Positions 1 through 47,946 of a stretch of DNA of 48,217 nt are shown here, piece after piece. Source of the stretch: a virus. The stretch is from positions 1 to 48,217 of IMG/VR virus record IMGVR_UViG_3300036859_000196; one strand, 5' to 3'. Numbering within the stretch: position 1 is the stretch's first letter; every line of letters starts with the position of its first letter. Under the pieces are notes generated by a model. That model was not told the DNA's origin. It ran no database searches and saw only the letters and a program-made list of their open reading frames with translations. A program made the position numbers and the translations under genes.

Positions 1-125
1 TTACTGTGGATTGGGACCGCGACGTGATGGGCTACTCGCCCGACCGCGTCGACGCCCTGGTGTGGGCGATCACCGAACTGATGCTGGCCAACCGCGCCCG
101 CGGCGGCCTTGTGGGGACGTTCTGA
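1..125 (+). CDS. terL: Terminase large subunit, 3' terminal fragment (window-edge copy of 47403..47527)
   Basis: nt 1..127 identical to 47403..47529 and 48091..48217; stop TGA 123-125 overlaps portal ATG 125-127. Confidence 0.6.
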   Translation, partial: TVDWDRDVMGYSPDRVDALVWAITELMLANRARGGLVGTF

Positions 126-1501
126 TGCGCAAGCATGGCTTCATGTTGCGGTTGCGCACCGCCATCACGGCGTTCTGGCTCGCCAAGGCCTCCGCCGTCG
201 GCCCCCTCATCGCGCGCCTCGTCGTCGGCCGCGCCGTCTATCCCGAGCGAGACTACGCTAAGCTCGCGCAGGAGGCCTACCAGCGCAACAGCGTGGCCTC
301 GTCCGCCATCCGCATGATCGCCGAGTCAGTGGCCCAGATCCCATGGTGCATGTACTCCGGCAAGGGCGACAACCGCACAGAGATCGAGGAGCACCCGTTC
401 CTCGACCTGATGCAGTCGCCCAACCCCACGCAGGACTGGCAGTCGCTGATCACCGCACTGATCAGCAACTACAAGATCAGCGGCAACCTCTACTGCGAGC
501 GGACCGAGGAGGCGAAGATCGAGCGCATGGAGCTCTACGCGCACCGTCCCGACCGCATCACCATCGTGCCGGACGAGACCGGCGTGCCGGCGGCGTACAA
601 GTACCGCTGCGGCGGTGCCGAGCGCGACTTCGAGATCGACATCGACAAGCAGACGCGGCCGCTGCTCCACCTCAAGACGTTCAATCCGCTCAACGACTGG
701 TATGGTCAGAGCCCCCTCGATGCGTGCGCGTGGGCCATCGATCTGCACAACGGCTACTCGTCGCACAATCTGGGCCTGTTGCAGAACAGCGGCAGCCCAT
801 CGGGCGCGCTGGTATTCAGGGGTACCACGCAGGAGCCCGGCTCGCTGGACCCCGACCGGGCCGCGATCCTGCTTGCCCAGATCCGCGGCGAGGAACGCGG
901 CTACGACAAGAACGGCTCGCGAATGCTGCTCGACGGCGGCGAGTGGCAGTGGCTGCAGATGGGCCTCGATGCCGACAAGATGCAGTCGATGGAGGGCAAG
1001 AACCAGGCCGCGCGAGAGATAGCCTTCACGCTCGGCGTCCCCCCGATGCTGCTCGGCATTCCCGGTGACAACACCTATTCCAACTACCAGGAAGCGCGGC
1101 AGGCCTTCTACCAGGAGACCGTCATCCCGCTCGCGAGCATGCTGGTGCGTGCGTTCCAGCAGTGGTTCGCCAAGGCCCTCGGCAAGGGCGTGTATCTGGA
1201 GGCCAACATCGACGATCTCGACGCCCTGGCCGCAGCCCGCGCCGAGCAGTGGGACCGCATCGAGAAGTCCGAGCAGCTCACCACCAACGAGAAGCGCGAC
1301 GCCATGGGCTACGAGCCTGTCGACGGCGGCGACGTGCTGTACGTGAGCGCTGGCAAGATCCCGATCGATCAGGCGGTGGACACCTTCGAGGCCGATCAGG
1401 ACCGCGCCGACGAGGCGCTTGCGGCGAAGAAGCCGCCCAAGGTCAAGTCGGGCGGGCCGGTGTTCAAGTCGCCGCCCGTTGTCCATGAGGCAAGCGAATG
1501 A
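125..1501 (+). CDS. Portal protein (HK97-family-like)
   Basis: 458-aa ORF directly after terL; portal-like size and position; ATG 125 inside longer TTG-initiated ORF 11..1501. Confidence 0.8.
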   Translation: MRKHGFMLRLRTAITAFWLAKASAVGPLIARLVVGRAVYPERDYAKLAQEAYQRNSVASSAIRMIAESVAQIPWCMYSGKGDNRTEIEEHPFLDLMQSPNPTQDWQSLITALISNYKISGNLYCERTEEAKIERMELYAHRPDRITIVPDETGVPAAYKYRCGGAERDFEIDIDKQTRPLLHLKTFNPLNDWYGQSPLDACAWAIDLHNGYSSHNLGLLQNSGSPSGALVFRGTTQEPGSLDPDRAAILLAQIRGEERGYDKNGSRMLLDGGEWQWLQMGLDADKMQSMEGKNQAAREIAFTLGVPPMLLGIPGDNTYSNYQEARQAFYQETVIPLASMLVRAFQQWFAKALGKGVYLEANIDDLDALAAARAEQWDRIEKSEQLTTNEKRDAMGYEPVDGGDVLYVSAGKIPIDQAVDTFEADQDRADEALAAKKPPKVKSGGPVFKSPPVVHEASE

Positions 1502-1875
1502 GCGCCCACGACTACTACAGCGGCAAGGGCCTCCAGCTCCAATCCAAGTATTCCAGCGGGCACGGAACAGTGGTGTTGCAATACGACCGCGATCCAGAAC
1601 TTGACACGATTTGGTACGGTCGCCGGCTCGAAACGGTGCACATCACAATCGCCGAGGATGGCTCGATGTCCGAGACGATTGAGGAGTGGACGGGAGCGCC
1701 GTCGAACGTCAATCACTACTTGGTGCTTGCCGAAGCGCCCCCCGAGTTGCCGACGGATGCACAGATCGATGCCATCCGACAACTCAACCGCGAGGGTCAC
1801 CCCAGTGGTTATGAGGTAATCAAGTGGATCGCCGGCAAAGACGCCGCGGACCGCGCCGGTAGGATGCACGACTAG
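1498..1875 (+). CDS. Hypothetical protein (moron-like, lower GC), starts MSAHDYYS
   Basis: 125-aa ORF, ATGA overlap with portal stop; its first ~26 nt recur at 47968. Confidence 0.5.
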   Translation: MSAHDYYSGKGLQLQSKYSSGHGTVVLQYDRDPELDTIWYGRRLETVHITIAEDGSMSETIEEWTGAPSNVNHYLVLAEAPPELPTDAQIDAIRQLNREGHPSGYEVIKWIAGKDAADRAGRMHD

Positions 1876-1879
1876 CCCC

Positions 1880-3166
1880 ATGGTTCTCCCCCGGCTTGCC
1901 CCCCGCCAGCGCATGGAGCGGGCGGCCTCGGTGCGCCTGGTCGTTGCCCTGGAGACCGCGCTGGAGCGGAACCTCGCCCGCACCATCGTCGCCATCGGCC
2001 GCAACGCCATGTCACGCTACGTCGCCGGCGGCGATCCTGCCGCCGTTGATGCCGTTGATATGTCAACAATCGGCCGCGTGCTCGCCCCATCGCTCCGCAA
2101 CACGGCGCGGGTGTTCGGCCGCGCCCTCGTATCGAAATCGACAGACATCGGCATCGAGACCAAGGCCTTCGAGGATCTCGATGCCGGCGTCGAGGAGTTC
2201 CTTCGCGCGCACACGGCCGACCGCGTGGTTCAGATCTCCGACGCCCTGAAGCGCATCATCACCAACATCATCCGCGACGGGTTGGAGGCCAACCGCGGCG
2301 TCGAGGAGGTGGCCCAGGCCATCGTCGAGGCCACGTCCGGCACCATGGCCATGGCCAGAGCCCGGCGCATCGCCCGCACCGAGACGCACATGGCGGCCAA
2401 TGCCGGCCAGCTCGCCGCCGCCCGCGCATCGCCGCTGCAATGGCGTAAGGAGTGGCTCGCCACCGAGGACCAGCGCACGCGCGAGGACCACGCCGAGGCC
2501 AACGGGCAGACGGTCGACCTTGACGAGCCGTTCATCGTCGGCGGCGAGGAGATGATGATGCCGGGCGATCCGAATGCGCCGCCCGAGCAGACCATAAATT
2601 GTCGGTGTGCAGTTCTTTACAGCCCGATCGCCGCGGTGCAGCGCCCCGATGATGATGAAGCCGGCGGCGTCGAGCTCAACGACCTGCTCACCGATCCCGA
2701 CCTGTGGCGCGCGTTCTTCCAGCAGTTGGAGGAGCGCAACGCCCTGCCGGCCGACGTCGTGCTCTACGCCACCGGCGAGGCGTGCGGCCTGCCGCAATTC
2801 GCGTCCGCCGATGACATCGAGATAGGGAGTGAACTCGTCACCCCGCGCTCAGCGAGCATGAACCCCATCTTGGTCAATGCCGGCGCGGGGCTGCCCGATA
2901 CTTTCCCGCTCTACGGACGCCCGGTGGTCGTGAAGATCGCCGCGCCGGCCGGCACGCCGGCGGAGAGCGGCGCCACGATCGCCATGGAGGTGAAGCTCCG
3001 TGAGGACGTGCGCATCGTCGTCACCGCCGTGACCGAAGAGCGCTGGGGCGAGGCGCAGGACGAGGCCGGCGTCGAACGCGACCGTCCGCGTGCCCGCTAC
3101 CGCCATCAACGCATGCCCGCGAGGCGAGGCATCACATTGGTTGAAGCAGAGGTTCAGACGAAATGA
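1880..3166 (+). CDS. Head morphogenesis protein (Mu gpF / SPP1 gp7-like)
   Basis: Motifs ARTETHMAANAGQ, TEDQRTREDHAEANGQTV, INCRCAV typical of Phage_Mu_F domain. Confidence 0.7.
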   Translation: MVLPRLAPRQRMERAASVRLVVALETALERNLARTIVAIGRNAMSRYVAGGDPAAVDAVDMSTIGRVLAPSLRNTARVFGRALVSKSTDIGIETKAFEDLDAGVEEFLRAHTADRVVQISDALKRIITNIIRDGLEANRGVEEVAQAIVEATSGTMAMARARRIARTETHMAANAGQLAAARASPLQWRKEWLATEDQRTREDHAEANGQTVDLDEPFIVGGEEMMMPGDPNAPPEQTINCRCAVLYSPIAAVQRPDDDEAGGVELNDLLTDPDLWRAFFQQLEERNALPADVVLYATGEACGLPQFASADDIEIGSELVTPRSASMNPILVNAGAGLPDTFPLYGRPVVVKIAAPAGTPAESGATIAMEVKLREDVRIVVTAVTEERWGEAQDEAGVERDRPRARYRHQRMPARRGITLVEAEVQTK

Positions 3167-3867
3167 CCAAGCCGCTCACCCGAGCCGAGCTGGAGCACAA
3201 GGCCGTCAGGCTCGAATTGAAGTCGCTGGACGAGGCCGGCATCTTCGAGGGCTACGCCAGCGTCTTCGGTAACGAGGATCTCGGCGCCGACATTGTCGCC
3301 AAGGGCGCATTCGCCAACTGCCTTCGCCAGCGCGGCGTGCGCGGCGTCAAGATGCTGCACGAGCACGACTGTCAGAAGCCCATCGGGCGCTGGGTCGATC
3401 TCATGGAGGACAGCCACGGACTGCTCGCCAAGGGCAAGCTCAACCTCAATCTCGCGAACGGCCGCGAGGTCTACGAGATGCTCAAGGATGAGATGCTTGA
3501 CGGACTCAGCATCGGCTTCCGGGTTGTCAAGGCAACATCCGCACGCGGAAACGAGTCCGTGCGGACACTCGAAGAGGTCGATCTCAGAGAAATTTCAACA
3601 GTCCTCTTCCCAATGAACGAAATGGCTGTTATAGGCTCGGTCAAGGGTATTCACCCGCCGGACAGCAGCGAATTCGTTCGCGAGTTCGAGCGGTGGCTCA
3701 TGCAGGACGCTGGGCTTACCCGCACGAAAGCCCGCCAAATCCTTGGCGGGTACAAGACCCTCAGAGCCATGCCGGACGCTGGCGACGAGGTGGCAATGCC
3801 ACCTGGCGTCGTTTGGTCGTCCCTTGAGGACGGTCTGCGACGCCTCAGCGACGCAGCTAGCCAATAG
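3163..3867 (+). CDS. Prohead protease (HK97 gp4-like)
   Basis: N-terminal FEGYASVFGNEDLGADIVAKGAF resembles HK97 prohead protease family; sits upstream of capsid gene. Confidence 0.75.
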   Translation: MTKPLTRAELEHKAVRLELKSLDEAGIFEGYASVFGNEDLGADIVAKGAFANCLRQRGVRGVKMLHEHDCQKPIGRWVDLMEDSHGLLAKGKLNLNLANGREVYEMLKDEMLDGLSIGFRVVKATSARGNESVRTLEEVDLREISTVLFPMNEMAVIGSVKGIHPPDSSEFVREFERWLMQDAGLTRTKARQILGGYKTLRAMPDAGDEVAMPPGVVWSSLEDGLRRLSDAASQ

Positions 3868-3879: not shown

Positions 3880-5226
3880 ATGCCTGATGGCGCAATCCCA
3901 ACCGAAGTGAAGGCCCTCTTCGACGACCTGCAGAAGACGCTCCTCGCCAACCGCACGAAGGCCGAGGAGTTGGAGAAGCAGGTCAAGAAGACCGGCGAAG
4001 ACGCTGTGACGAAGGCGGAGCTCAAGAAGACCGACGACGCCTTCGAGGCCCTCAAGACGAAGATCACCGACGAGATCAACGCGCTTCACAAGAAGGCGTC
4101 CCGTCCCGTCGTGGCGCAGGTCACCGACGCCAAGTCCGCGGCGCTGGAGACCAAGGCTAATGCCGAGTTCGGCCGCTGGATCACGCCCGCCGGACATGCG
4201 GTGGACGTGACCAAGGCCGGCGCGGCGCGCATTGAGTATTCCAAGGCCTTCGAGACCTACCTCCGCAAGGGCAAGGACGGGCTGAGCGACCTCGAAGCGA
4301 AGGCGCTGTCCGTCGGCAGTGCACCCGACGGCGGCTTCTTCGTCGAGCCGTTCCGCAGCCAGCAGATCATCGACAAGCTCTACGAGACGAGCGCCATGCG
4401 CGCGATCGCCTCGGTGATCTCCATCACCTCGAAGTCGGTGGAGTATCCCATCGACCGCGATGAAGCGACCACCGGCTGGGTCGGCGAGCAGTCCTCGCGC
4501 CCGGAGACCAACACGCCGCAGGTCGGCATGCTGGAGATCCCCGTGCACGAGCTCTACGCGCTGCCCAAAGCGACGCAGAACCTTCTCGACGACGCCGGCT
4601 TCAACGTCCAGTCCTGGCTCGATATGAAGGTGGCTGACGAGATGGGCCGCGAGGAGAACAAGCAGTTCGTCCTCGGCAACGGGGTCAAGCAGCCCAAGGG
4701 CTTCACGACCTACACGACCGCGGCGACGGCCGATGCCTCCCGAGCCTTCGGGACGCTGGAGCGCGTCAACACTGGCCAAAACGGCGCATTCAAGACGCTG
4801 GCCGCCGGCCCGCCTATCGTCAACCCGGCGGACGACCTGCTGGACCTGATCTACAAGTTCAAGTCCGGCTATCGCTCGCGTCTGCGCTGGGGCGGCACCA
4901 AGCTCACCCTGGGCGCGGTCCGCAAGTTCAAGGACCTCCAGGGCAACTACATATATGACGCCCGCCTAGGCGCCAACGGCATCATCGACACGGTGTTCGG
5001 CTATCCGTGGGACGAGCTCGCCGACATGGCGGACTACACCACGACCGGCGCGCTCGGCATCGCGCTCGCCGACTGGAAGCGCGGCTACCAGATCGTCGAC
5101 CGCCAGGGCATCCGCCAACTGCGCGATCCCTACACGTCGAAGGGCTACGTGCTGTTCTACACGACCAAGCGTGTCGGCGGCGGCGTGCTCGACAGCGACG
5201 CGATCAAGTTCATTCAGTTCAGCTGA
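3880..5226 (+). CDS. Major capsid protein (HK97 fold)
   Basis: 448 aa, N-terminal coiled-coil delta-like domain then capsid-like body; follows protease. Confidence 0.8.
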   Translation: MPDGAIPTEVKALFDDLQKTLLANRTKAEELEKQVKKTGEDAVTKAELKKTDDAFEALKTKITDEINALHKKASRPVVAQVTDAKSAALETKANAEFGRWITPAGHAVDVTKAGAARIEYSKAFETYLRKGKDGLSDLEAKALSVGSAPDGGFFVEPFRSQQIIDKLYETSAMRAIASVISITSKSVEYPIDRDEATTGWVGEQSSRPETNTPQVGMLEIPVHELYALPKATQNLLDDAGFNVQSWLDMKVADEMGREENKQFVLGNGVKQPKGFTTYTTAATADASRAFGTLERVNTGQNGAFKTLAAGPPIVNPADDLLDLIYKFKSGYRSRLRWGGTKLTLGAVRKFKDLQGNYIYDARLGANGIIDTVFGYPWDELADMADYTTTGALGIALADWKRGYQIVDRQGIRQLRDPYTSKGYVLFYTTKRVGGGVLDSDAIKFIQFS

Positions 5227-6853: not shown

Positions 6854-7501
6854 ATGGGCCCCTCCCGCGGCAGCCTCGAACTGGTGACCGCCCCGGCAAC
6901 GGAGCCGGCCACGATTGCAGAGGCAAAGGCGCACGCCCGCATCGAGACTTCGGCCGACGATGCGCTGCTCGGCGCCTACATCACGGGGGCGCGCGAGCTG
7001 GTCGAGCGCACCACCGGCCGGGCGCTTATCACGCAGACCTGGAAGCTGACCCTCGACTGCTGGCCCGGATCGCGGGACGACGACTGGTGGGACGGCGTTC
7101 GGGAACTGCCGATCAGCTACGGCGAGGGCACCCACGTCGAGATCCGCAAGGCGCCGTTCCTGGCCATAACGTCGGTCGTGACGCTCGACGAGAGCGACAC
7201 GCCTACCACGTGGGCGTCGAGCAACTACTACGTCGACAAGCGCCACGGCTTCGGCCGGCTGATCAAGAAGCAGGGTGTGGTGTGGCCGACCATCATCGGC
7301 CGGGACTTCGGGGCGATCGTCATCGCCTTCACGGCAGGGTACGGAGCGAACGCGAGCGACGTGCCGATGGCGCTGCGGCAGTCGGTGAAGGATATCGTGG
7401 CCCACTGGTATGAGAACCGCGAGGCGGCCGCAGAGGTGAACTTCAACGAGGCGCCGATGAAGACGCGGGCGCTGCTGCAGCAATACACGGTGGCGAGGTG
7501 A
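6854..7501 (+). CDS. Head-tail connector protein (gp6-like, GTA-type)
   Basis: N-terminal ATIAEAKAHARIETSADDALLGAYITGARELVERTTGRAL typical of phage gp6 connector family. Confidence 0.65.
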   Translation: MGPSRGSLELVTAPATEPATIAEAKAHARIETSADDALLGAYITGARELVERTTGRALITQTWKLTLDCWPGSRDDDWWDGVRELPISYGEGTHVEIRKAPFLAITSVVTLDESDTPTTWASSNYYVDKRHGFGRLIKKQGVVWPTIIGRDFGAIVIAFTAGYGANASDVPMALRQSVKDIVAHWYENREAAAEVNFNEAPMKTRALLQQYTVAR

Positions 7502-7537
7502 GACGGATGAGCACGGAATGGAAGACCGATATGAGCG

Positions 7538-7600
7538 ATGAGGCCGACGGTCTACGCCGTCTCGAAGACCGCACCGGGGGCGCATAGCGCATACCGCTAA
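7538..7600 (+). CDS. 20-codon micro-ORF MRPTVYAVSKTAPGAHSAYR ending in the PGAH-x-[VA]-YR tail
   Basis: Hand translation; stop TAA 7598-7600 overlaps ATG 7600 of next gene; tail matches four larger ORFs. Confidence 0.35.
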   Translation: MRPTVYAVSKTAPGAHSAYR

Positions 7601-7971
7601 TGCCCAAGCACGCCGGCGAGCTCCGCGACCGCATCCGCATCGACCAGGACCTCGGCGCGACGGTGAACGTCATCGGCGACGCGGTGCCGGATTGGCAGCC
7701 GCTGATTACGGGCACCGACGACGGAATGATCTGGGCCAACGTCGCCCCGATGAGCGCGGGCGAGCAGTGGCGGCGTCTACAGATGAATGCGGAGGCGAAC
7801 TGGAAGGTCACGATCCGCCACCGCACGGACATAACCCCCAGGATGCGCGTCGTCTTCGGCCCGCGCGTCATGGAGATACGCGGCATCGTCAACCCCGACA
7901 TGAAGCGCCGGTTCCTCGAATTGGCCTGCGAAGAATTGGTAGCCGCCGATATAGTGGGGGCCGTGCCGTGA
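7600..7971 (+). CDS. Head closure / head-tail joining protein
   Basis: 123 aa; size, position and sequence pattern consistent with Phage_H_T_join family. Confidence 0.65.
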   Translation: MPKHAGELRDRIRIDQDLGATVNVIGDAVPDWQPLITGTDDGMIWANVAPMSAGEQWRRLQMNAEANWKVTIRHRTDITPRMRVVFGPRVMEIRGIVNPDMKRRFLELACEELVAADIVGAVP

Positions 7972-8465
7972 GGATCGCCGTCACCACGCCGCCGGACCTC
8001 GATTTCTCCGCCCTCGAAGCGGAGGCCCGCGCCGCCGTGGACCAGGCGCTCAAGGCCGGCGTGCAGATGATCGCCAACGATGCGAAGCGCGCGGTGGCAA
8101 GCGGCCCCAAGACGGGCAATATCTATACGCACTATTTCCGTACCGGCCCCAACGGCGGCGTGTTCCCGGTCGAGAAGCGCGGCGTGCCGCACCAGGCCTC
8201 CGCCCCGGGCGAGGCGCCGGCAACCGACACGGGGCGGCTGGTCAACTCCATCGTCGCCGATGCGGAGTGGACCGGCGACAGCATCACCGGCTACGTGCGT
8301 GCCGATGTGGAGTACGCGCGCTGGCTCGAATACGGCACGCGCAAGATCCTGCCGCGCCCGTTCCTGATCCCGGCGATCGAGCGCAACCGGCAGCGCATCG
8401 TCGACCTGATCCGGGTCGCATTCGCAACGGCCGCGGGGCAGTTCGCCCGCAAGGTGAGGAGATAG
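7968..8465 (+). CDS. Tail component protein, HK97 gp10 family
   Basis: GTG 7968; C-terminal EYARWLEYGTRKILPRPFLIPAIERN resembles HK97 gp10 family. Confidence 0.65.
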   Translation: MRIAVTTPPDLDFSALEAEARAAVDQALKAGVQMIANDAKRAVASGPKTGNIYTHYFRTGPNGGVFPVEKRGVPHQASAPGEAPATDTGRLVNSIVADAEWTGDSITGYVRADVEYARWLEYGTRKILPRPFLIPAIERNRQRIVDLIRVAFATAAGQFARKVRR

Positions 8466-8470: not shown

Positions 8471-8764
8471 ATGGACGAGAAGCGAGCAGCCGACGACGCA
8501 GTCCGGTACCGCGAGGCGCTGTCGATGATCGAGCAGATGCAGCCGATGGCCGACAAGCTCTACGACTGGCGCATCGACCCCAACGGCCGGTTGCGGGACG
8601 CGCTCGACGTATTCCAGCGCACCTGCAGTGACATCATCGAGGCGCTATCCACCGACGCTCTGGCAGAGGGCTTGAACGATTTGTCGCGGGACGGAGGGCG
8701 CATGTTCTCCGACCGCCGCCCGCTCGATGCCAAGGCAAGGGGCGCGCATAGCGTCTACCGCTGA
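8471..8764 (+). CDS. Small acidic helical protein, C-terminal ...ARGAHSVYR tail family
   Basis: ATG 8471 with GAGGAG upstream inside ORF 8267..8764; shared C-terminal motif. Confidence 0.6.
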   Translation: MDEKRAADDAVRYREALSMIEQMQPMADKLYDWRIDPNGRLRDALDVFQRTCSDIIEALSTDALAEGLNDLSRDGGRMFSDRRPLDAKARGAHSVYR

Positions 8765-8767: not shown

Positions 8768-9178
8768 ATGGCCGACCGCTCCGTCGAACTGTTCGCAGCC
8801 CTCCGCACCGCCCTCGCGGGCGACGCGGCGCTGGCGACAGTGCTCGGCGGATCGGGGCGCGTGCACAGCGCCATGACGCCCGCTGGTGCGCCGCCGCCCT
8901 ACGTGGTGATCGGCGATGAGACGGCCGCGGACTATGGCGCCAGCGACGGAGACAGCCAGGAGCACACCGTCACGATGCACGTGTGGACCGAGGAGCCCGG
9001 CAAGCTGCAGTGCCTGCAGGCGATGTCCGCGGTGCGCGCGGCACTGCACGACGTAGATCTGTCCCTCTCCGGCGGGCTGCTGGTCAACCTGCGTTGCGAG
9101 TTCAAGGAGACGTTCCGCGACCCGGACGGCGTTTCCCAGCACGGCGTCATGCGCTTCCGGGCCGTAACGACGGGGTGA
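8768..9178 (+). CDS. Tail completion-like protein (DUF3168-like)
   Basis: 137 aa; segment PPPYVVIGDETAADYG...HTVTMHVWTEEPG; position as in GTA clusters. Confidence 0.55.
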   Translation: MADRSVELFAALRTALAGDAALATVLGGSGRVHSAMTPAGAPPPYVVIGDETAADYGASDGDSQEHTVTMHVWTEEPGKLQCLQAMSAVRAALHDVDLSLSGGLLVNLRCEFKETFRDPDGVSQHGVMRFRAVTTG

Positions 9179-9182: not shown

Positions 9183-9473
9183 ATGGGAAGGCGACACGCT
9201 TACATCGAGGCCATAAGCGAAAAATTGGGCGAGTTGGAGACACAGCTCCATGATCTCGCGGATGCAGCGGCGCGCGTGCGCGATGAGTCAATGCAGATGA
9301 GCGTCGCGCAGAGCATGAATGAGTTCCTTGCTGGGCTGTCGCGCTCTCAGAGCGCGCTACTCAGCGCAAGACGTGCTCTCGACACGATCGAAGATCCGAC
9401 CATATGGGACCCGACGAAGTCTGCACCCGGCGTCGAGGGCAGAATTCCCGGCGCGCACCGCGCCTATCGCTAG
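9183..9473 (+). CDS. Small helical protein, C-terminal ...IPGAHRAYR tail family
   Basis: 96-aa ORF; shared C-terminal motif. Confidence 0.6.
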   Translation: MGRRHAYIEAISEKLGELETQLHDLADAAARVRDESMQMSVAQSMNEFLAGLSRSQSALLSARRALDTIEDPTIWDPTKSAPGVEGRIPGAHRAYR

Positions 9474-9488: not shown

Positions 9489-9902
9489 ATGGCCAATCTC
9501 TCCCAGACCGCGGCAAACGTTGCAGCCGCCGCCGGCGCCAAGATCGACACCACGAAGATCGCCGGCGCCACGCTCACCGCGGGCATGCCGGTCTACATCG
9601 ACGCCGCCGACGGCAAGGCCAAGATTGCCGACAACAATGTATCGGCTGCGCTCGCCGCAGTCTACGGCATCGCCCTCAACGGCGCCTCCGATGGGCAGCC
9701 GGTGGCGATCTGCACCGAGGGCGATGTGAACCTCGGCGCCACCCTCGCGATCGGCGAGATCTATGCGCTCTCCGCCACCGCGGGCGCGATCTGCCCGGAC
9801 GCGGATGTCGTGTCCACCAATTTTGTCAGCCACCTCGGCACGGCACGAACGCCGGCGCTCATGCAGCTGAAGATCAACAATACCGGCGTCGCGCACGCCT
9901 GA
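9489..9902 (+). CDS. Hypothetical structural protein (DUF2190-like)
   Basis: AAGGAG RBS 8 nt upstream; Gly/Ala/Val-rich 137-aa pattern. Confidence 0.4.
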   Translation: MANLSQTAANVAAAAGAKIDTTKIAGATLTAGMPVYIDAADGKAKIADNNVSAALAAVYGIALNGASDGQPVAICTEGDVNLGATLAIGEIYALSATAGAICPDADVVSTNFVSHLGTARTPALMQLKINNTGVAHA

Positions 9903-9939: not shown

Positions 9940-10347
9940 ATGGCCAGGCAGAAGGGGAGCGACGTACTCCTCAAGCTCGACACTACTGGGTCCAGCAACT
10001 ACGTCACCATCGGAGGCATTCAGAACGCGCGCATCACGCTCGACCGCGGCGACGCCGATGTCACCAACCAGGGCTCACCGTCCAAGCACCGCGAGCTTCT
10101 GGAGGCCGCGGGCATCTTTAAGATGAGCGTGTCCGGCGACGGCGTGTTCGACAGCGCCGCCCCGCAGGACACCCTGCGCTCCATCATGATGCAGGGCCTG
10201 CACCGCAACTGGCAGGTCATCGTGCCGGGCCAGGGCACCTACTCCGGCGCCTTCATGGTGACCAAGCTGGAGTTCGGCGGGCCGCACGAGAAGGAGGTCA
10301 CCATGCAGATCTCCCTCGAAAGCGCCGGGCTGATCAGCTTCGTCTGA
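9940..10347 (+). CDS. Major tail protein (TP901-1/GTA type)
   Basis: 135 aa; GAGGAG RBS; size and position typical of GTA-like major tail protein. Confidence 0.65.
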   Translation: MARQKGSDVLLKLDTTGSSNYVTIGGIQNARITLDRGDADVTNQGSPSKHRELLEAAGIFKMSVSGDGVFDSAAPQDTLRSIMMQGLHRNWQVIVPGQGTYSGAFMVTKLEFGGPHEKEVTMQISLESAGLISFV

Positions 10348-10918: not shown

Positions 10919-12778
10919 ATGCCCGACGCCAATCTCAATTTCCAGATCACCGGCGACGCATCGCAGTTCCGCGCGGCGCTGAACCAGGCGCAGACGGCAA
11001 GCCGGCAGACCGCGGAGGGCATGACGACCGCCTTCACGCGCGCGACCGAGAAGGTCGCCACGTCGGTGCGCGATCTCGGCCGCGGCATAGGGGGCGTCTT
11101 CGAGCAGGTCGCCCGCAACATCGGCCAGGCCGCGACGCAGTGGGGCGATCAATGGGCGGGCACGGCGCAGGGCGCTTTCAACTCGGTGTCGTCTGCCGCG
11201 CGCGGAATGATTTCCGCCGTGGCGGGGATCTTCGGCGGCGCTACCGCGCGCATGGCGGACATCGCACTCAACCTGTTTGCGCTGCCGTTCGAGAACGCCC
11301 TGGACCACGCGTCACGCGCCGCTGCGCGGTTCCTGCGAGACATCCCATCGGCATCCACCGCAAGCGCCGGGACGGGCATGAGCTACTTCGAGGCCAACCT
11401 TGCGGTGCTGCGCCGGGCCGTCAGATCGATGATGGGTCTGTCCGGCGGCCTCGGCGACAGGCCCCAAGCGTTCGAATTTGAGCAGGCCATGGCCGGGATC
11501 AATCCCGCGGGCACTAGCCAGTCGCCAATGGAGCGAATGGACCCGCTGCGGATGACGGAACTGGGCCGGACTTTCGGCCCAGCCGTTGCCAACCTCACGG
11601 GCCAGGCGCAGTTGGAGGAGCGCGCTGCCGCAGTGGTCGGCCAGACCGCGGGCGCCATTGCGAGGGCGCGCGCCGAATTGGAGCTGTGGCGCGCGCTGTG
11701 GCTTCAGGGCGACCGGGAGCCGAACGCCGATCAGGTTGCAGCCATGGAGGCAATCCTCAACCGGATCGCCAATGCTGCCGACGCGCGCCAATCGAACCAG
11801 GACAGACAGCAAGTGCTCGCGCAGATCCGGCGCGAGATCGAGATGGAGCGTGAGCGGGCGGACGCGATCAATCTGACCGCAGGCGCTCGTGCGCGGGAAC
11901 GCTCCGAGGCCATAGTCCGCGGCTTCCGCCAAGGCCGGGGCGGCCGAGGCGCGAACCTTCTCGAAGATGACGAGGTGCAGGCTGCGCTCGCGCGCAGGGA
12001 AGCCGCCGCCGACGCCGCCGCGCACACGCGCCTTGCGGCCGAAATGGGCCAGGCGGTGCAATTTCAGACCATGGCATTCGACCGCCAGCGCCAATCGATC
12101 GGGGCCACCGCCGGCGAGATGGCGCGGCTTCTGTTCGTGGAGCAGCAGCACCAGGCGGCGATCCGTGCTGGCGTGCTTCTGTCGGATGATGAAGCAGAGG
12201 CGATCAACCGCAACGCCGAAGCAATCGCTCAAAGGACGCAGGCGCTGACGCTCGCGAACGAGCAGTTCAGGCGGTTGTTGGACACCGGCCGCGTGGTTGC
12301 GAGCAGCCTGGAGAGCGCATTCGCCAAGTTCATGGACGGCACCAAGCAGAGCTGGCGCTCGCTCGTGAACGACCTCTCCAAGGACATGGCCAAGCTCGCC
12401 TTCCGGCAGCTGTTCATCAACACCCTGTTCGGCCAGGGCGCCGGCTCGTCCAACCCGCTGGGGCTATTCGGTCAGGTGTTCGGCGGCTTCCGCGCCGAGG
12501 GCGGCTCGGTGTCGGCCGGCACGTCCTACATGGTCGGCGAGCGCGGCCCGGAACTGTTCCGCCCGCGCCAGTCCGGCACCATCGTGCCCAACAGCGCCAT
12601 GCGCGGCGGCGACCCCGCAGTCATCAACATGCGCATCGACCTCTCCGGCGCGAACGGCGACGAGACCATCGCCCGCATCTCCGGCCAAGCGGCGCGCATG
12701 GCGGCGATGGCGGCGGTGCAGGAGAGCAACGCGGCGTTCCCCGCGCGACAGCGCCGGCTGCAGATGCTGGGGACGTGA
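10919..12778 (+). CDS. Tail tape measure protein
   Basis: 619 aa, Ala/Gln-rich helical; C-terminal FRAEGGSVSAGTSYMVGERGPELFRP typical of tape measure C-terminus. Confidence 0.8.
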   Translation: MPDANLNFQITGDASQFRAALNQAQTASRQTAEGMTTAFTRATEKVATSVRDLGRGIGGVFEQVARNIGQAATQWGDQWAGTAQGAFNSVSSAARGMISAVAGIFGGATARMADIALNLFALPFENALDHASRAAARFLRDIPSASTASAGTGMSYFEANLAVLRRAVRSMMGLSGGLGDRPQAFEFEQAMAGINPAGTSQSPMERMDPLRMTELGRTFGPAVANLTGQAQLEERAAAVVGQTAGAIARARAELELWRALWLQGDREPNADQVAAMEAILNRIANAADARQSNQDRQQVLAQIRREIEMERERADAINLTAGARARERSEAIVRGFRQGRGGRGANLLEDDEVQAALARREAAADAAAHTRLAAEMGQAVQFQTMAFDRQRQSIGATAGEMARLLFVEQQHQAAIRAGVLLSDDEAEAINRNAEAIAQRTQALTLANEQFRRLLDTGRVVASSLESAFAKFMDGTKQSWRSLVNDLSKDMAKLAFRQLFINTLFGQGAGSSNPLGLFGQVFGGFRAEGGSVSAGTSYMVGERGPELFRPRQSGTIVPNSAMRGGDPAVINMRIDLSGANGDETIARISGQAARMAAMAAVQESNAAFPARQRRLQMLGT

Positions 12779-12780: not shown

Positions 12781-13212
12781 ATGACCGACGCGTTGCGACT
12801 GGAGCGCAAGACTTGGGTCGAAGCTCTGATGTTGATCGCCGGCGGCGCTGCCATGATCACGGCATATGCTGTCTGGGTTGCCGGTAAAATGGCCGTCACC
12901 GAGTTCGGGAAGCGCAAGATCGTTGAGCTTTTCCTGACGGAGGAGGAGCGCATTGAGCGCGAGATTGCTGAGATCGACCTCGATGTTCGGCGCAATGAGC
13001 GCTACCTGGAACGCGGGGCGGTAGATGCACATAGGGACGACGCGCGCGACATCTTGCTCGAGCGCAACGAAGGGCTTCTTGAGCGGCGTGCCGTGCTTGA
13101 TGACAAGCTCCGCGAGCTCCGTCGCGTCATGAGCGAATTTGACGATGTGCCAACCGCAGGCGAGGACGAGAAGTCCGCCCGTGTCCCCGGCGCGCACATG
13201 GTCTACCGATGA
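12781..13212 (+). CDS. Membrane-anchored coiled-coil protein, C-terminal ...VPGAHMVYR tail family
   Basis: N-terminal hydrophobic segment; stop overlaps next ATG (ATGA); shared C-terminal motif. Confidence 0.6.
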   Translation: MTDALRLERKTWVEALMLIAGGAAMITAYAVWVAGKMAVTEFGKRKIVELFLTEEERIEREIAEIDLDVRRNERYLERGAVDAHRDDARDILLERNEGLLERRAVLDDKLRELRRVMSEFDDVPTAGEDEKSARVPGAHMVYR

Positions 13213-14213
13213 ATTTCTACCCCTCGATCATCTACTGGCCGCGCATTCTGCAGCGCGACCGCCGCTGGACGTGGGAGCTGGCCGCCCGCACGCTCTCCGG
13301 TGGCCGCTCCATGTCCGGCCTGATGCCGGTCGCGCGCCTCGACGGCGGCGGCATGTGGATGGCCTCGCTCGGCGATGTCCAGGTGTCCACCCCGGACCAG
13401 GTCAGGGCGTGGCGGGCCATCGCGGCTCGGCTCGACAGCGGGGCGACGCCGATCGCCGTGGAGGCGCGGGACGAACGCCACTCGCCATGGCCGCTCGTGG
13501 GCGGCGTGCCGCTGGTCGCCGAATACGAGGCCACCAACTCGGACGGCAGCACACCGTCCGATCAGACGAACTACGTCTCCGACGTGATCCAAGCCGAGGT
13601 CAAGACGGCCGCGGCGCTCAGGGCGACAACTCTGGATCTGATCCTGGAGAACGCCCAGGCGCTTCGCGGCGGCGAATACTTCAGCATACAGCACGACACG
13701 TTCAGTCACCGGCTCTACCGCCTCGGCAAGGTGACAAAGATCGACACGAGCGACCACGCAGTCAGCGCGATGACGGTGACCATCGCCTCGCCTGGCGTGT
13801 TCACCGTGACGGCGCACGGCTTCGCGGCCAGGCAGCGGGTCTACTTCCGCACCTCCGGCGCGCTGCCGACGGGGCTGTCGCCGGAAACGCTCTACTTCGT
13901 GTTGTCCACAGATTTGTCGGCCAACACCTTCAAGGCCTCCGCGACCGAGGAAGGGACCGCGATCAACACGTCGGGCAGCCAGTCCGGCACGCACCGCGTG
14001 GTGACTGGTGGCTTCCCGACCGTGACAATCCGCCCGCCGCTGCGCGAGGACACTACCGCCGGCACGCGTGTCGAGTTCGACAACCCCACGTGTATCATGC
14101 GGCTCGCGGCGCCTGATGCCATGGATCTGGTACTCGACCGCCGCATCTACGGCCAAGCCGATGTCAAGTTCGTCGAGGACTTCCCGCCGTTCGATCTGGT
14201 GGAGGACGCATGA
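13209..14213 (+). CDS. Putative distal tail protein
   Basis: 334-aa ORF after tape measure; assignment by position only. Confidence 0.45.
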   Translation: MNFYPSIIYWPRILQRDRRWTWELAARTLSGGRSMSGLMPVARLDGGGMWMASLGDVQVSTPDQVRAWRAIAARLDSGATPIAVEARDERHSPWPLVGGVPLVAEYEATNSDGSTPSDQTNYVSDVIQAEVKTAAALRATTLDLILENAQALRGGEYFSIQHDTFSHRLYRLGKVTKIDTSDHAVSAMTVTIASPGVFTVTAHGFAARQRVYFRTSGALPTGLSPETLYFVLSTDLSANTFKASATEEGTAINTSGSQSGTHRVVTGGFPTVTIRPPLREDTTAGTRVEFDNPTCIMRLAAPDAMDLVLDRRIYGQADVKFVEDFPPFDLVEDA

Positions 14214-36947: not shown

Positions 36948-37793
36948 CTATGCGGTCTCAATCAACTCGATCACCTTGTCGGCCATTTTTGTCCACGCCG
37001 CGCTCCACGCCGCGCTCCACGCCGCGCTCTCCGCGCTCCACGCCGCGCTCTCCGCGCTCCACGCCGCGCTCTCCGCGCTCCTCGCCGCGCTCTCCGCGCT
37101 CCTCGCCGCGCTCCTCGCCGCGCTCGCCGCGCTCCTCGCCGCGCTCTCCGCGCTCCACGCCGCGCTCCACGCCGCGCTCCACGCCGCGCTCTCCGCGCTC
37201 ATCGCCGCGCTCCACGCCGCGCTCTCCGCGCTCATCGCCGCGCTCCTCGCCGCGCTCGCCGCGCTCCTCGCCGCGCTCCTCGCCGCGCTCCTCGCCGCGC
37301 TCGCCGCGCTCCTCGCCGCGCTCCTCGCCGCGCTCTCCTCTGGACGTGCGCCCTTGCACATCGGCAAGAGAACGTCAGCACACTGACGCACAGCGTCCCG
37401 CACCAGATCATGCTCGATGCCTGGATTGACGCTGCTGTCTGTCAGCAGCCAATGCAGAAAGCGCCAGCCCACGCAGGACAGATCGGCGCCGGGGCGGATC
37501 GCGCGCATGAAACGCTCGGGCCACGCCTGAGCGGCGCCATTCGGCAGGCCTTCAAAGATCGAGTCTTCCAGGTGTGCCAGCATCACCGGGATGCCGAAGC
37601 GCGTCTCGTACTCCACGTGGTTGTCGCTGTAGAGCGTGCAGCCGACCGCGCACCCCTTGCCGTTCTGCCAATACTGGCCCTTGATGATCTCGTCGGCGGC
37701 GCGGTGGCGGGCGAGTTGGGCCAGGATGTCGATCTTGGCCTGGGGGTCGCCGTGGTAGGCCTGCATCGGGGTGCTCTCCTGCAATGGCGGCAT
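36948..37793 (-). CDS. Protein with globular N-terminal domain and ~29 tetrapeptide repeats
   Basis: Repeats SAAR/SAAW/SAES/SAAS/SAAM encoded by 12-nt units; likely start ATG 37766 (AGGAGA RBS). Confidence 0.55.
   Translation of the reverse strand: MPPLQESTPMQAYHGDPQAKIDILAQLARHRAADEIIKGQYWQNGKGCAVGCTLYSDNHVEYETRFGIPVMLAHLEDSIFEGLPNGAAQAWPERFMRAIRPGADLSCVGWRFLHWLLTDSSVNPGIEHDLVRDAVRQCADVLLPMCKGARPEESAARSAARSAASAARSAARSAARSAASAARSAAMSAESAAWSAAMSAESAAWSAAWSAAWSAESAARSAASAARSAARSAESAARSAESAAWSAESAAWSAESAAWSAAWSAAWTKMADKVIELIETA
36990..37340. repeat. Tandem array of ~29 imperfect 12-nt repeats
   Basis: Units like GCGCTCCACGCC / GCGCTCTCCGCC; all six frames open across the array. Confidence 0.85.
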
Positions 37794-45654: not shown

Positions 45655-46245
45655 ATGGCCAGCAAGCAGAAGTCCCGCTCGAAGTCCGCACCGAAGGCAA
45701 AGCCCGCGAACAGCTCCAAGCGGAGCCGCGGCAGGCCAAGCGACTTCAAGTCGGAGTTCTGCGATCAGGCCGAGAAGCTGTGCAAGCTCCTCAACGCCGA
45801 CGATCTGGCGCTCGCGGCCTTCTTCGAGAAGGACGTCGCCACCATCAACCGATGGAAGAAGGCGCACGCTGAATTCCGCGCGTCGATAAAAAGGGGGAAG
45901 ATCGCGGCCGACATCGAGGTCGCGCACAGCTTTCATGAACGCGCCCGCGGCTACGAGTGGCAAGAGGCCGTGCCGATCAAGCTGAAGACCGTCGAGTACC
46001 ACGATGGCAAGCGGGTCAAGGAGAGCGAGCGCGTCGAGATCGTCATGGTCACAAAGCGCCAACCTGCGGACGTGACGGCGGGCATCTTCTGGATGAAGAA
46101 CCGACAGCACGAGACGTGGCGCGACAAGCACGATCACGCGCACTCCGGCGCCGTCGATGTGAACCTCACAGAGGTACGCGGTGGAATTGCGGGCAAGCTC
46201 GATCGCATCGCTTCCGCCCTCGAAAAGGCAAGCGTTCCTCGATAG
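45655..46245 (+). CDS. terS: Terminase small subunit
   Basis: Basic N-terminus then RGRPSDFKSEFCDQAEKLCKL..DVATINRWKKAHAEFRASIKRGK HTH-like region. Confidence 0.65.
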   Translation: MASKQKSRSKSAPKAKPANSSKRSRGRPSDFKSEFCDQAEKLCKLLNADDLALAAFFEKDVATINRWKKAHAEFRASIKRGKIAADIEVAHSFHERARGYEWQEAVPIKLKTVEYHDGKRVKESERVEIVMVTKRQPADVTAGIFWMKNRQHETWRDKHDHAHSGAVDVNLTEVRGGIAGKLDRIASALEKASVPR

Positions 46246-47527: not shown

Positions 47528-47529
47528 TG
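47357..47529 (+). repeat. 173-bp direct repeat, copy B (3' end of terL)
   Basis: Identical to 48045..48217; its last 127 nt equal window 1..127. Confidence 0.85.
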
Positions 47530-47946
47530 GGTGACCTACTGGCAAGAGCGAGAGACCTTGCGCAGCGCGCCAGGAGCATTGAGGCGGATGCGCAGCGCCT
47601 TGACGACGCAATGGCCGGATCTCCGACGAGAAGTGAGGTCGAGCGCGCAGTCGACGAAGCTCAGCGGCTTAAGCCCGCCGTCTCGGCTCTCGCCAGGGGA
47701 CAGCACGCCCTCATCGATGAGGCCGGCCGCCTCGATGACGTCGATGACGCACCCGGCATCGAGGATGCCGTTGGCGCACTATTCGACGATCTGGAGTTCG
47801 ACGCCGAGCGCATCCTCTGGCTCATCAACAGCGTCATCTATGATGGTGGGAAGTACCTATCCACCCATACGCACGACACGTTTAACGATTGGCTAGACGC
47901 GAACAAATCGGCCCCTCGCCCCGGCGCTCACGCCGTCTACCGCTAA
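47527..47946 (+). CDS. Small acidic helical protein, C-terminal ...RPGAHAVYR tail family
   Basis: ATG 47527 overlaps terL stop (TGATG); shared C-terminal motif. Confidence 0.6.
   Translation: MGDLLARARDLAQRARSIEADAQRLDDAMAGSPTRSEVERAVDEAQRLKPAVSALARGQHALIDEAGRLDDVDDAPGIEDAVGALFDDLEFDAERILWLINSVIYDGGKYLSTHTHDTFNDWLDANKSAPRPGAHAVYR

What the first reader, a model, noticed from the sequence alone, without database searches (positions are those of the whole stretch)
7538..7600. 20-codon micro-ORF consisting of little more than the shared tail, overlapping the head-closure start codon
The 98-bp gap between connector and head-closure genes holds ATG 7538 ... TAA 7598-7600, encoding MRPTVYAVSKTAPGAHSAYR; its stop overlaps the ATG of the next gene (TAATG). 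A minimal copy of the tail as a leader-peptide-sized ORF suggests the tail is a self-contained module. It may act in cis on translation of the overlapping downstream gene, as stalling leader peptides do.
Basis: partly seen in the sequence, partly recalled or inferred. Interest (0 to 1): 0.6.

Follow-up and report, generated by a model that had tools for sequence, protein, structure and literature searches.

The report
Leftover stub of deleted phage gene
The 20-codon ORF is really there, but it is the out-of-frame leftover end of a 65-262-codon accessory gene that related phages still carry between the same two neck genes, not an evolved leader peptide. Its main value is that it exposes an undescribed family of swappable phage genes that all end in the same short tail.

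Summary
ATG 7538...TAA 7598-7600 encodes MRPTVYAVSKTAPGAHSAYR, the stop overlaps the head-closure (Hc1) ATG, and K-x-PGAHxxYR-stop ends five + strand ORFs (0.045 expected by chance). Codon usage shows the tail is conserved as a peptide.

The micro-ORF is not a minimal evolved module. In seven related phages the adaptor|head-closure junction holds a full-length tail-bearing gene whose stop abuts the Hc1 start. One of them ends in the identical KTAPGAHSAYR (37/39 nt).

The window's 98-nt gap is a scar of such a gene:
- The native Shine-Dalgarno (SD) site and ATG 7507 plus about 19 N-terminal codons (MSTEWKTD..., compare MSTERKTD in relatives) lie in one frame.
- They are joined out of frame to the last 12 codons.
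- ATG 7538 is an accidental out-of-frame ATG with no SD.

There is no RNA structure, Rfam hit or slippery site. Stalling-leader regulation is unsupported. Ordinary termination-reinitiation coupling onto the SD-less Hc1 start remains possible, and more likely comes from the 26-codon frame-1 ORF that ends 12 nt upstream.

The more interesting result is the parent family: up to eight exchangeable late-operon cassettes per genome, with unrelated bodies and a shared tail, found only in a rare phage clade and absent from Pfam, PHROGs, NCBIfam and PADLOC.

The parts
6854..7501 (+). Head-tail adaptor (Ad1) gene. Its last codons and stop (..GTG GCG AGG TGA) contain the SD (GAGG, 7495-7498) that serves ATG 7507.
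   Evidence: PF05135 / phrog_442. SD duplex energy -7.7 kcal/mol for the 7507 start.
7507..7563 (+). 5' remnant of the deleted junction gene: native start plus about 19 codons (MSTEWKTDMSDEADGLRRL), in frame 1, which is also the Hc1 frame. The conserved ERK has decayed to EWK.
   Evidence: It aligns to the 5' ends of the MSTERKTD-family genes of L246 and L248, including the shared upstream GGTGGCGAGGTGAGACGATGAG.
7507..7587 (+). The 26-codon ORF now read from the native start (MSTEWKTDMSDEADGLRRLEDRTGGA*). TAG 7585-7587 lies 12 nt upstream of the Hc1 ATG.
   Evidence: Best SD in the gap.
7564..7600 (+). 3' remnant: one leftover base (G 7564), then the tail codons K T A P G A H S A Y R and TAA, in frame 2. 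The deletion junction lies within about 7555-7564.
   Evidence: 37/39 nt identical to the end of the L248 90-aa gene, with an identical peptide KTAPGAHSAYR*. 33/39 nt identical to L246.
7538..7600 (+). The micro-ORF as reported. Its ATG spans the frame-1 codons GAT GAG, and the frame opens only after TGA 7532-7534.
   Evidence: No SD: -3.3 kcal/mol against a background mean of -2.98.
7600..7971 (+). Head-closure (Hc1) gene. Its start has no SD (+1.3 kcal/mol) and overlaps the tail stop (TAATG).
   Evidence: PF05521.. The start agrees with homologues P0003-P0007.
8471..8764 (+). tailA: an intact 97-aa tail-bearing gene at the Neck1|tail-terminator junction (..SDRRPLDAKARGAHSVYR*).
   Evidence: Orthologue in L248: 61% aa identity, dN/dS about 0.39.
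9183..9473 (+). tailB: an intact 96-aa tail-bearing gene at the tail-terminator|9489 gene junction.
   Evidence: In L243 a different body occupies this junction, and similarity resumes at the PGAH codons.
12781..13212 (+). tailC: an intact 143-aa tail-bearing gene (transmembrane segment, coiled coil, tail) at the tape-measure|distal-tail junction.
   Evidence: It is homologous to genes at other junctions in relatives (37% identity, E = 3e-21). All 4 library relatives carry the tail.
47527..47946 (+). tailD: an intact 139-aa tail-bearing gene at the terminase|portal junction. The cassette is flanked by a 173-bp direct repeat (47357-47529 = 48045-48217).

Best explanation
The 98-nt gap is the scar of a tail-bearing 'junction gene' that once sat between the adaptor and head-closure genes, as it still does in relatives. 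The micro-ORF is an accidental reading of the 3' part of that scar.

Shown:
- One internal deletion of roughly 400 nt (3n+2) removed the body of the gene.
- It kept the 5' end (SD, ATG 7507 and about 19 codons) and the 3' end (the last 12 codons, with the stop overlapping ATG 7600).
- The two ends were left in different frames.
- The micro-ORF is the frame-2 reading of the 3' piece. It opens at an ATG that merely spans the old frame-1 codons GAT GAG, and it has no ribosome-binding site.

Inferred:
- Ribosomes mainly load at ATG 7507, make the 26-residue frame-1 peptide and stop at TAG 7587.
- Some of them reinitiate 12 nt downstream on the SD-less Hc1 start.
- Only deletions that spared both gene junctions were viable, because the tail codons sit where the Hc1 SD would be. 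Hc1 translation therefore depends on ribosomes delivered from upstream.
- The 20-residue peptide is at most a minor by-product with no evolved function.

The tail itself is a peptide-level module shared by many exchangeable late-operon genes. It is most likely a docking or targeting signal for a common partner. This last point is inferred and not tested.
For: 1. Synteny. The Ad1|Hc1 junction holds a full-length tail gene whose stop abuts or overlaps the Hc1 start in seven relatives.
- L248: 90 aa. L246: 163 aa. L249: 91 aa.
- L250: at least 74 aa. L016: 96 aa. L012/P0001: 65 aa.
- L251: 262 aa plus 91 aa.
- Sources.

2. The L248 gene ends ..AAKTAPGAHSAYR* with a TAATG overlap, which is identical to the window tail. 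37/39 nt match, and both differences are synonymous in the tail frame.

3. Window 7495-7563 aligns with the 5' flank and N-terminus of the MSTERKTD family (L246, L248/P0009). The window reads it in frame 1 and reads the tail in frame 2.

4. SD duplex energies are -7.7 (7507), -3.3 (7538, at background level) and +1.3 (Hc1) kcal/mol.

5. Independent mini-derivatives show the same process.
- L015 equals L018 minus exactly 387 nt. This reduces a 168-aa gene to 39 codons that keep the N-terminus and the tail, with flanks 99-100% identical.
- L251 has a 39-codon relic at the MuF|protease junction.

6. Among 32 tails with an identifiable downstream start, 22 end within -4..+3 nt of it. Those starts have weak SDs (my mean of the listed values is about -1.5 kcal/mol). 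Starts 15-32 nt away have -3.8 to -7.7 kcal/mol.

7. The conserved ERK in the remnant's N-terminus has decayed to EWK (two nucleotide changes), as expected for a dead gene.

8. No RNA structure, Rfam family, promoter or terminator lies in the gap.
Against: - No close relative carrying the same scar was found. The timing of the deletion, and whether the phage is viable, are therefore unknown.
- The tail residues in the remnant are all intact, and there are no nonsynonymous differences from L248. Flanking genes show dS of 0.36-0.84. This fits a recent deletion, or recent recombination, but also continued selection on the frame-2 peptide.
- The TAATG overlap is the ideal geometry for termination-reinitiation. 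The frame-1 ORF stops 12 nt short of ATG 7600, and at distances like that coupling is reduced in a gene-pair-specific way (PMC10666635). A bridging role for the micro-ORF therefore cannot be dismissed.
- The only other copy of this sequence that I found (L139, 8,783 nt, 100% identical) is one Logan-assembled contig from a single run. It may come from the same DNA as the window, so it is not a clearly independent confirmation.
Confidence: 0.8

Rival explanations
1. Bridge ORF. Whatever its origin, the micro-ORF is translated from ATG 7538, and its termination at TAATG hands ribosomes to the SD-less Hc1 start by ordinary termination-reinitiation. It would then be retained for that cis function, not for its peptide.
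For: - The -1 overlap is the commonest and most efficient coupling geometry (PMC6728339; PMC10666635).
- Hc1 has no SD (+1.3 kcal/mol).
- In relatives Hc1 is always abutted by the upstream tail gene.
- In-frame mini-ORFs that would act this way exist (L015).
Against: - ATG 7538 has no SD (-3.3 kcal/mol, background level).
- It lies 37 nt past the adaptor stop, too far for efficient reinitiation from Ad1.
- The SD-equipped start at 7507 is in another frame and would capture the incoming ribosomes first.
Confidence: 0.2
2. One reading: the tail is a ribosome-arrest peptide. A ribosome stalled on the micro-ORF stop codon regulates initiation of the overlapping head-closure gene, as SecM, TnaC or Erm leaders do.
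For: - The conserved residues lie in the last 8-20 positions before the stop, and conservation is at the peptide level. That is the layout of arrest peptides.
- Most tails end on or next to the next start codon.
Against: - Relatives have no small ORF here, only 65-262-aa genes.
- The bodies of tail genes are under purifying selection (dN/dS about 0.39; 37% identity across the full length). They are proteins, not spacers.
- Ten of 32 tails are followed by spacers of 6-32 nt, and the four longest (15-32 nt) precede starts with SD energies of -3.8 to -7.7 kcal/mol.
- No competing RNA structure exists.
- The micro-ORF lacks an initiation signal of its own.
Confidence: 0.03
3. Free tail peptide. 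The 20-mer is made and acts in trans, for example as a cargo-less competitor or occupant of the site that the tails of the four intact proteins bind.
For: All invariant tail residues (K, P, G, A, H, Y, R) are intact in the remnant.
Against: - It has the same initiation problem.
- The origin by an out-of-frame deletion makes its expression accidental.
- There is no recurrence of an independent tail-only ORF with its own start. The other mini-ORFs keep the native N-terminus.
Confidence: 0.05
4. Recoding or sequencing error. A +1 frameshift, or a 1-nt assembly error, joins the SD-driven frame-1 ORF to the tail. The product would be a 30-residue in-frame mini-protein (MSTEWKTDMSDEADGLRRL-KTAPGAHSAYR) like the L015 mini-ORF.
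For: - The two frames meet exactly between ..RRL and KTAP.
- An in-frame equivalent exists in L015.
Against: - The stretch 7535-7567, where the shift would have to occur, contains no run of 3 identical bases. There is therefore no X XXY YYZ heptamer, no homopolymer prone to indel error, and no CUU-stop type +1 site.
- The Logan contig L139 carries the identical sequence.
Confidence: 0.03

Closest known systems
Gene remnants left by internal deletion in mosaic phage genomes (pseudogene scars)
   Same: A short stretch retains both ends of a gene that is intact at the same position in relatives. The frames are disrupted and a conserved N-terminal motif has decayed.
   Different: The parent gene belongs to a family that is not in Pfam, PHROGs, NCBIfam or PADLOC. 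Both retained ends coincide with translational junctions to essential neighbours.
Translational coupling by termination-reinitiation at overlapping stop/start codons (ATGA, TGATG, TAATG)
   Same: There is a TAATG overlap and the downstream gene has no SD. Most intact tail genes show the same arrangement (PMC6728339 and PMC10666635).
   Different: Here the ORF that overlaps the start has no initiation signal. The ORF that has one stops 12 nt short. Coupling was not measured.
[quoted passage not shown]
   Same: A diverse, fast-changing set of proteins within one phage lineage shares only a short terminal peptide (PMC3012670). Here unrelated bodies share only the tail and are swapped between relatives.
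   Different: - The T4 CTS is N-terminal and is removed by the prohead protease. This tail is C-terminal.
- Packaging and cleavage are untested here.
- Some members have transmembrane segments.
- The genes are scattered over every junction of the morphogenesis operon rather than clustered.
Encapsulin cargo-loading peptides (C-terminal peptides that dock cargo inside an HK97-fold shell; from my own knowledge)
   Same: A short C-terminal linear motif on otherwise unrelated proteins, in a system built on an HK97-fold capsid (PF05065 capsid and S78 protease in relatives).
   Different: There is no sequence resemblance and no evidence of capsid binding. This is an analogy only.
Ribosome-arrest leader peptides (SecM, TnaC, ErmCL; from my own knowledge)
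   Same: Small size, and conserved residues in the last 10-20 positions before the stop.
   Different: There is no own SD, no conservation as a small ORF, no RNA switch and no downstream SD to unmask. The same tail ends large, selected proteins.

Membership tests
Shared-tail junction genes of this phage clade (defined here) | C-terminal K-x(1-8)-[P]GAHxxYR followed directly by a stop | tested here: met
   The frame-2 ORF ends SKTAPGAHSAYR*.
Shared-tail junction genes of this phage clade (defined here) | Native SD and start next to the upstream gene's stop, in frame with the tail | tested here: not met
   The native start (7507, frame 1) and the tail (frame 2) are out of frame.
Shared-tail junction genes of this phage clade (defined here) | Protein body of 65 aa or more between the N-terminus and the tail | tested here: not met
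   Only about 19 N-terminal and 12 C-terminal codons remain. Relatives have 65-262 aa.
Shared-tail junction genes of this phage clade (defined here) | Stop overlapping or abutting the start of the next structural gene | tested here: met
   TAATG at 7598-7602. 22 of 32 family members end within -4..+3 nt of the next start.
Regulatory leader / ribosome-arrest peptide | Own translation-initiation signal | tested here: not met
   Anti-SD duplex energy -3.3 kcal/mol, at background level.
Regulatory leader / ribosome-arrest peptide | Conserved as a short ORF upstream of the regulated gene in relatives | tested here: not met
   Seven relatives carry 65-262-aa genes at this junction instead. L143 carries a 170-aa gene without a tail.
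Regulatory leader / ribosome-arrest peptide | An RNA structure, or a masked downstream SD, whose state depends on the stalled ribosome | tested here: not met
   The MFE z-score is -0.44. There is no Rfam family. Hc1 has no SD.
Regulatory leader / ribosome-arrest peptide | The nascent peptide arrests elongation or termination | not testable with these tools
   This needs toeprinting or in vitro translation.
Termination-reinitiation coupled gene pair | Stop/start overlap of -1 or -4 nt | tested here: met
   TAATG.
Termination-reinitiation coupled gene pair | Downstream start lacks an independent SD | tested here: met
   +1.3 kcal/mol, the weakest value among the operon starts tested.
Termination-reinitiation coupled gene pair | The upstream ORF is itself translated | tested here: inconclusive
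   7538 has no SD. The SD-driven ORF (7507) is in another frame and ends at +12 nt.
Virion-targeting terminal peptides (T4 CTS / encapsulin cargo peptide type), considered for the tail and not for the micro-ORF | A short terminal peptide shared by otherwise unrelated proteins of one phage | tested here: met
   Five ORFs in the window share only the tail. There are 35 distinct tails in 14 loci.
Virion-targeting terminal peptides (T4 CTS / encapsulin cargo peptide type), considered for the tail and not for the micro-ORF | Bodies vary or are exchanged among close relatives while the peptide stays | tested here: met
   L243 versus the window at the same junction. The same body family sits at different junctions.
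Virion-targeting terminal peptides (T4 CTS / encapsulin cargo peptide type), considered for the tail and not for the micro-ORF | The proteins are physically incorporated into the (pro)capsid or virion through the peptide | not testable with these tools
   No cultured relative exists: the best GenBank phage capsid match is below 40% identity, and no GenBank phage carries the tail.
Programmed ribosomal frameshift | A slippery site in the window where the frames must switch (7535-7567) | tested here: not met
   There is no run of three identical bases in that stretch.

The most novel reading that the evidence does not exclude
The shared tail marks an undescribed accessory-gene system of a rare clade of HK97-like siphoviruses.
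- Each genome carries up to eight or more late-operon cassettes.
- Their bodies are unrelated (soluble coiled-coil proteins, membrane-anchored ones, one with a T4_Y16D domain), and they are exchanged and moved between gene junctions.
- All end in (SDRRPLxxK / DEKS)-x-PGAHxxYR.
- In this reading the tail is a common docking or virion-targeting signal. It would be a C-terminal counterpart of the T4 capsid targeting sequence or of encapsulin cargo peptides.
- The micro-ORF would then be the scar of one such cassette, which may still yield a cargo-less tail peptide.
Probability: 0.3. Interest if true: 0.65.

Novelty: new member of a known kind. Interest (0 to 1): 0.3.

Why it matters
The micro-ORF on its own is ordinary. 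It is a deletion scar, and it should not be annotated as a leader peptide or a small protein without ribosome data. It matters for two other reasons.

1. It shows how such relics arise and why they persist.
- The tail codons occupy the place of the next gene's ribosome-binding site.
- Deletions can therefore remove the body of a junction gene but not its ends.

2. It led to the parent family.
- These are exchangeable late-operon genes that share only a C-terminal peptide under purifying selection.
- The family is absent from the four profile libraries searched, and 50,697 GenBank phage records gave no match to a 25-aa tail query.
- If the tail is a targeting or docking signal, it would be a portable tag for loading proteins into, or onto, HK97-type virions.
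- It would also offer a way to study how phages shuffle accessory cargo.

Tried and rejected
1. Tail as a DNA or RNA repeat.
- An exact or 3-mismatch DNA search and the repeat finder found no DNA-level repeat.
- Codon analysis shows peptide-level conservation instead.

2. RNA element in the gap.
- The fold z-score is -0.44, Rfam finds nothing there, and no promoter or terminator is predicted.

3. Read-through from the adaptor gene. Rejected because three in-frame TGA codons lie between the adaptor stop region and the micro-ORF.

4. Resemblance of the frame-1 peptide 'DGLRRLED' to the prohead-protease C-terminus 'EDGLRRLSD'. Not significant (tblastn E = 0.58 in a small database). The N-terminal homology to the MSTERKTD family explains that stretch better.

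5. Tail-profile protein search. It returned only one protein, P0001, because the word index is too coarse for a 12-residue motif.

6. Degenerate DNA pattern scan of genome contigs.
- Every stop-terminated hit I inspected looked like chance: no upstream K[ST][AV], not coding.
- The scan was therefore spent without result, and it says nothing firm about prophages.
- The same pattern in viral contigs gave 7 true loci out of 12.

7. Family libraries. Pfam, PHROGs, NCBIfam and PADLOC returned only coiled-coil noise for the tail-bearing proteins I scanned. One L248 member carries a precomputed PF26092 (T4_Y16D) annotation.

8. GenBank phages. There is no close relative (the best DNA and capsid matches include Azospirillum phage Cd; best capsid identity is below 40%) and no tail match.

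9. Structure prediction was not run.

Full report
**The observation**

ATG 7538 opens 20 sense codons (MRPTVYAVSKTAPGAHSAYR), TAA lies at 7598-7600, and ATG 7600 opens the next gene. The neighbours are a head-tail adaptor (6854..7501, PF05135/phrog_442) and a head-closure protein (7600..7971, PF05521/phrog_25). The 'shared tail' exists. The regex GAH..YR over all six frames gives five hits, all on the + strand and all directly followed by a stop (stops ending at 7600, 8764, 9473, 13212, 47946). Shuffles give 0.045 hits.

**The tail is a peptide, not a nucleic-acid element**

There is no DNA repeat at this site. In 17 distinct tails from this and related phages, the first two codon positions of G, A, H and Y are invariant. 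Third positions vary: P is CCC/CCG/CCA/CCT, A is GCG/GCT/GCC, H is CAC/CAT and Y is TAC/TAT. Arg is coded by CGC, CGA, CGT and AGG, and all three stop codons occur.

**Context in the window**

The window is a circular phage genome (1-127 = 48091-48217) with a canonical HK97-type late operon. Family scans of the window proteins and the Pfam annotation of the identical contig L139 identify these genes:
- adaptor, 6854..7501
- head closure (Hc1), 7600..7971
- Neck1, 7968..8465
- tail terminator, 8768..9178
- an unassigned gene, 9489..9902
- major tail protein, 9940..10347
- chaperones
- tape measure, 10919..12778
- distal tail protein, 13209..14213

The head end is assigned by sequence inspection and by the Pfam annotation of syntenic homologues in L248:
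- terminase (TerL), 46181..47527
- portal, 125..1501
- MuF, 1880..3166
- S78 protease, 3163..3867
- capsid, 3880..5226

Four intact small genes end in the tail, and each sits at a junction between two conserved genes:
- tailD, 47527..47946, between terminase and portal
- tailA, 8471..8764, between Neck1 and the tail terminator
- tailB, 9183..9473, after the tail terminator
- tailC, 12781..13212, between tape measure and distal tail protein

Their bodies do not align with one another. They match no Pfam, PHROG, NCBIfam or PADLOC family, and their third-position G+C content (GC3) is lower than that of their neighbours. The micro-ORF occupies a fifth such junction.

**Relatives**

GenBank phages hold nothing close and gave no tail match. 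A degenerate tail pattern found true tails in seven high-GC IMG/VR loci. Its hits that ended in TGG instead of a stop were chance matches in unrelated contigs. A scan seeded with the tail terminator showed that tails are confined to the nearest subgroup (51% identity or more). They are absent from L144, where Neck1 and the tail terminator are adjacent.

Homologues of Hc1 led to the closest relatives. L248 has eight tail genes in 15.9 kb. Across 14 loci I counted 35 distinct tails. The extended consensus is xSDRRPLxxK-x(0-5)-PGAHxxYR* or [DE]3KS[AV]-x(0-3)-PGAHxxYR*.

The bodies are real proteins:
- The tailA orthologue in L248 is 61% identical, with dN/dS about 0.39.
- tailC is 37% identical over its full length (E = 3e-21) to a gene that sits at a different junction, portal|MuF, in L018.
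- All four tailC relatives among 1.84 billion representative proteins carry the tail.

The bodies are also exchanged. At the tail-terminator junction, L243 has flanks 80-92% identical to the window but an unrelated body, and similarity resumes exactly at the PGAH codons.

**What the micro-ORF is**

In seven relatives the adaptor|Hc1 junction holds a full-length tail gene whose stop abuts or overlaps the Hc1 start:
- L248: 90 aa
- L246: 163 aa
- L249: 91 aa
- L250: at least 74 aa
- L016: 96 aa
- L012/P0001: 65 aa
- L251: 262 aa plus 91 aa

The L248 gene ends ..RRPLAAKTAPGAHSAYR* with TAATG. Its last 11 residues equal the window's, and 37 of 39 nt are identical. Both differences are synonymous in the tail frame.

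The L246 gene begins MSTERKTDGDAADYERR. Window 7495-7563 aligns to that 5' end, including the shared upstream GGTGGCGAGGTGAGACGATGAG. There it encodes MSTEWKTDMSDEADGLRRL from ATG 7507, in frame 1. The tail is in frame 2.

The gap is therefore 5' stub + 3' stub of one gene, joined out of frame at about 7555-7564. An L246-sized parent implies a loss of about 398 nt, which is 3n+2. The micro-ORF's ATG spans the frame-1 codons GAT GAG. The same GATGAG is present, in frame, in the intact L248 gene at this junction, so the ATG is inherited and accidental. The ERK motif that starts many family members has become EWK in the stub.

**The same process elsewhere**

L015 is identical to L018 except for a clean 387-nt in-frame deletion. 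It reduces a 168-aa tail gene to 39 codons (the first 23 and the last 16), with flanks 99-100% identical. L251 has a 39-codon relic at the MuF|protease junction, whose tail is disturbed by one extra C. In all three cases both gene junctions survive.

**Translation**

Anti-SD duplex energies are:
- -7.7 kcal/mol for ATG 7507
- -3.3 for ATG 7538 (background mean -2.98)
- +1.3 for Hc1
- +0.6 for the tail terminator
- -2.2 for the distal tail protein

The three genes that start on or next to a tail stop have no SD, because the tail codons lie where it would be. Across relatives, 22 of 32 tails end within -4..+3 nt of the next start. Those starts have weak SDs (my mean of the listed values is about -1.5 kcal/mol). 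Starts 15-32 nt away have -3.8 to -7.7 kcal/mol.

So Hc1 probably depends on ribosomes arriving from upstream (inference). In the window, the ORF with a loading site is the 26-codon frame-1 ORF, which stops 12 nt before ATG 7600. The ORF with the ideal overlap has no loading site. Published reporter work found termination-reinitiation to be strongly distance dependent. Losses were variable and gene-pair specific at +2 and +14 nt, and 80-100% at +38 nt (PMC10666635).

**Rivals**

- An arrest-peptide or leader mechanism is unsupported. No relative has a small ORF at this junction, there is no alternative RNA fold (z = -0.44), no Rfam hit, promoter or terminator, and no downstream SD to unmask. 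The same tail also ends large, selected proteins, some followed by spacers with their own SD.
- Frameshifting or an indel error is unlikely. 7535-7567 has no run of three identical bases, and a Logan contig is 100% identical over 8,783 nt.
- A bridging role for the micro-ORF, or a free tail peptide, cannot be excluded without ribosome data. All tail residues are intact, which fits either a recent deletion or continued constraint.

**What the tail does**

This is not shown. The pattern resembles the T4 internal proteins, which are diverse and share only a capsid targeting sequence (PMC3012670). It also resembles encapsulin cargo peptides (my own knowledge). The shared features are unrelated and exchangeable bodies, a constant terminal peptide, late-operon location only, and an HK97-type capsid with an S78 protease. 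I therefore favour a common docking or targeting function, with low confidence.

The capsid alignment conserves ..LExK followed by (A/T)LSVGxAPxGGF. By analogy with HK97 this may be the maturation cleavage site and may resemble the K-[ST]-A of the tail. That is speculation.

**Verdict**

It is wrong on the main point: the micro-ORF is a scar, not a leader. The micro-ORF itself is ordinary, and the cassette family behind it is the part worth following.

Noticed in passing
window 47357-47529 and 48045-48217 (= 1-127 across the circular junction); insert 47530-48044: The last 173 bp of the terminase gene are duplicated, 100% identical, on both sides of the tailD cassette. Downstream of the tailD stop lies a 5' fragment of a gene like orf 1498..1875 (47968.., 'MSAHDYYS'). 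This looks like a very recent recombinational insertion of a tail cassette that carried pieces of its former neighbours.
   Followed up: partly
L248 9701-9735 and 10338-10372; L246 1351-1385; window 7489-7512: The MSTERKTD-type cassette travels with its 5' flank GGTGGCGAGGTGAGACGATGAG (..V A R stop, SD, ATG). The flank follows the adaptor gene in the window and in L246, but follows the head-closure gene in L248. There it has rewritten the Hc1 C-terminus to ..MVAR*.
   Followed up: partly
N-termini of tail genes: window 12781.. (MTDALRLERKTW); L246, L248, L249, L250, L251, L243: Many tail-bearing genes also share an N-terminal motif, M-x(1-8)-ERK-x-[WF]. Two long proteins (P0013, 502 aa; P0010, 262 aa) look like in-frame fusions of several cassettes, joined as ..SDRRGL|ERKGW...
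   Followed up: no
window 36948..37793 (-), repeats at 36992-37338: A 281-aa ORF has a C-terminal array of SAA[RWMS]SAA / ESAA repeats (DNA periods 12/21/33, about 31 copies of the 12-mer). Its function is unknown.
   Followed up: partly
window 23206-23229 / 25318-25341; 23617-23679 = 27159-27221; 24023-24206 ~ 27219-27402: A perfect 24-nt inverted repeat (GGGAATTATATACTTGACGTACTG) brackets 2.1 kb. Nearby direct repeats are 100% and 92% identical. All lie in the lower-GC part of the genome (0.61), which may mark an invertible or duplicated segment or a mobile element.
   Followed up: no
window 30989-31047 (-): A tRNA-like match just above the Rfam gathering score (30.8 bits against 29).
   Followed up: no
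window 125..1501 and 1880..3166: The long ORF at the start of the window is the portal, and 1880..3166 is a MuF/SPP1 gp7-like head protein. Neither is terminase or portal respectively, as the gene order might suggest. The terminase large subunit is 46181..47527 (with the L248 annotation).
   Followed up: yes
L251 2091-2210: A 39-codon relic of a tail gene sits at the MuF|protease junction. One extra C turns ..APGAHAIYR* into ..APGAPRHLQVTRT*, and the new stop overlaps the protease ATG.
   Followed up: partly
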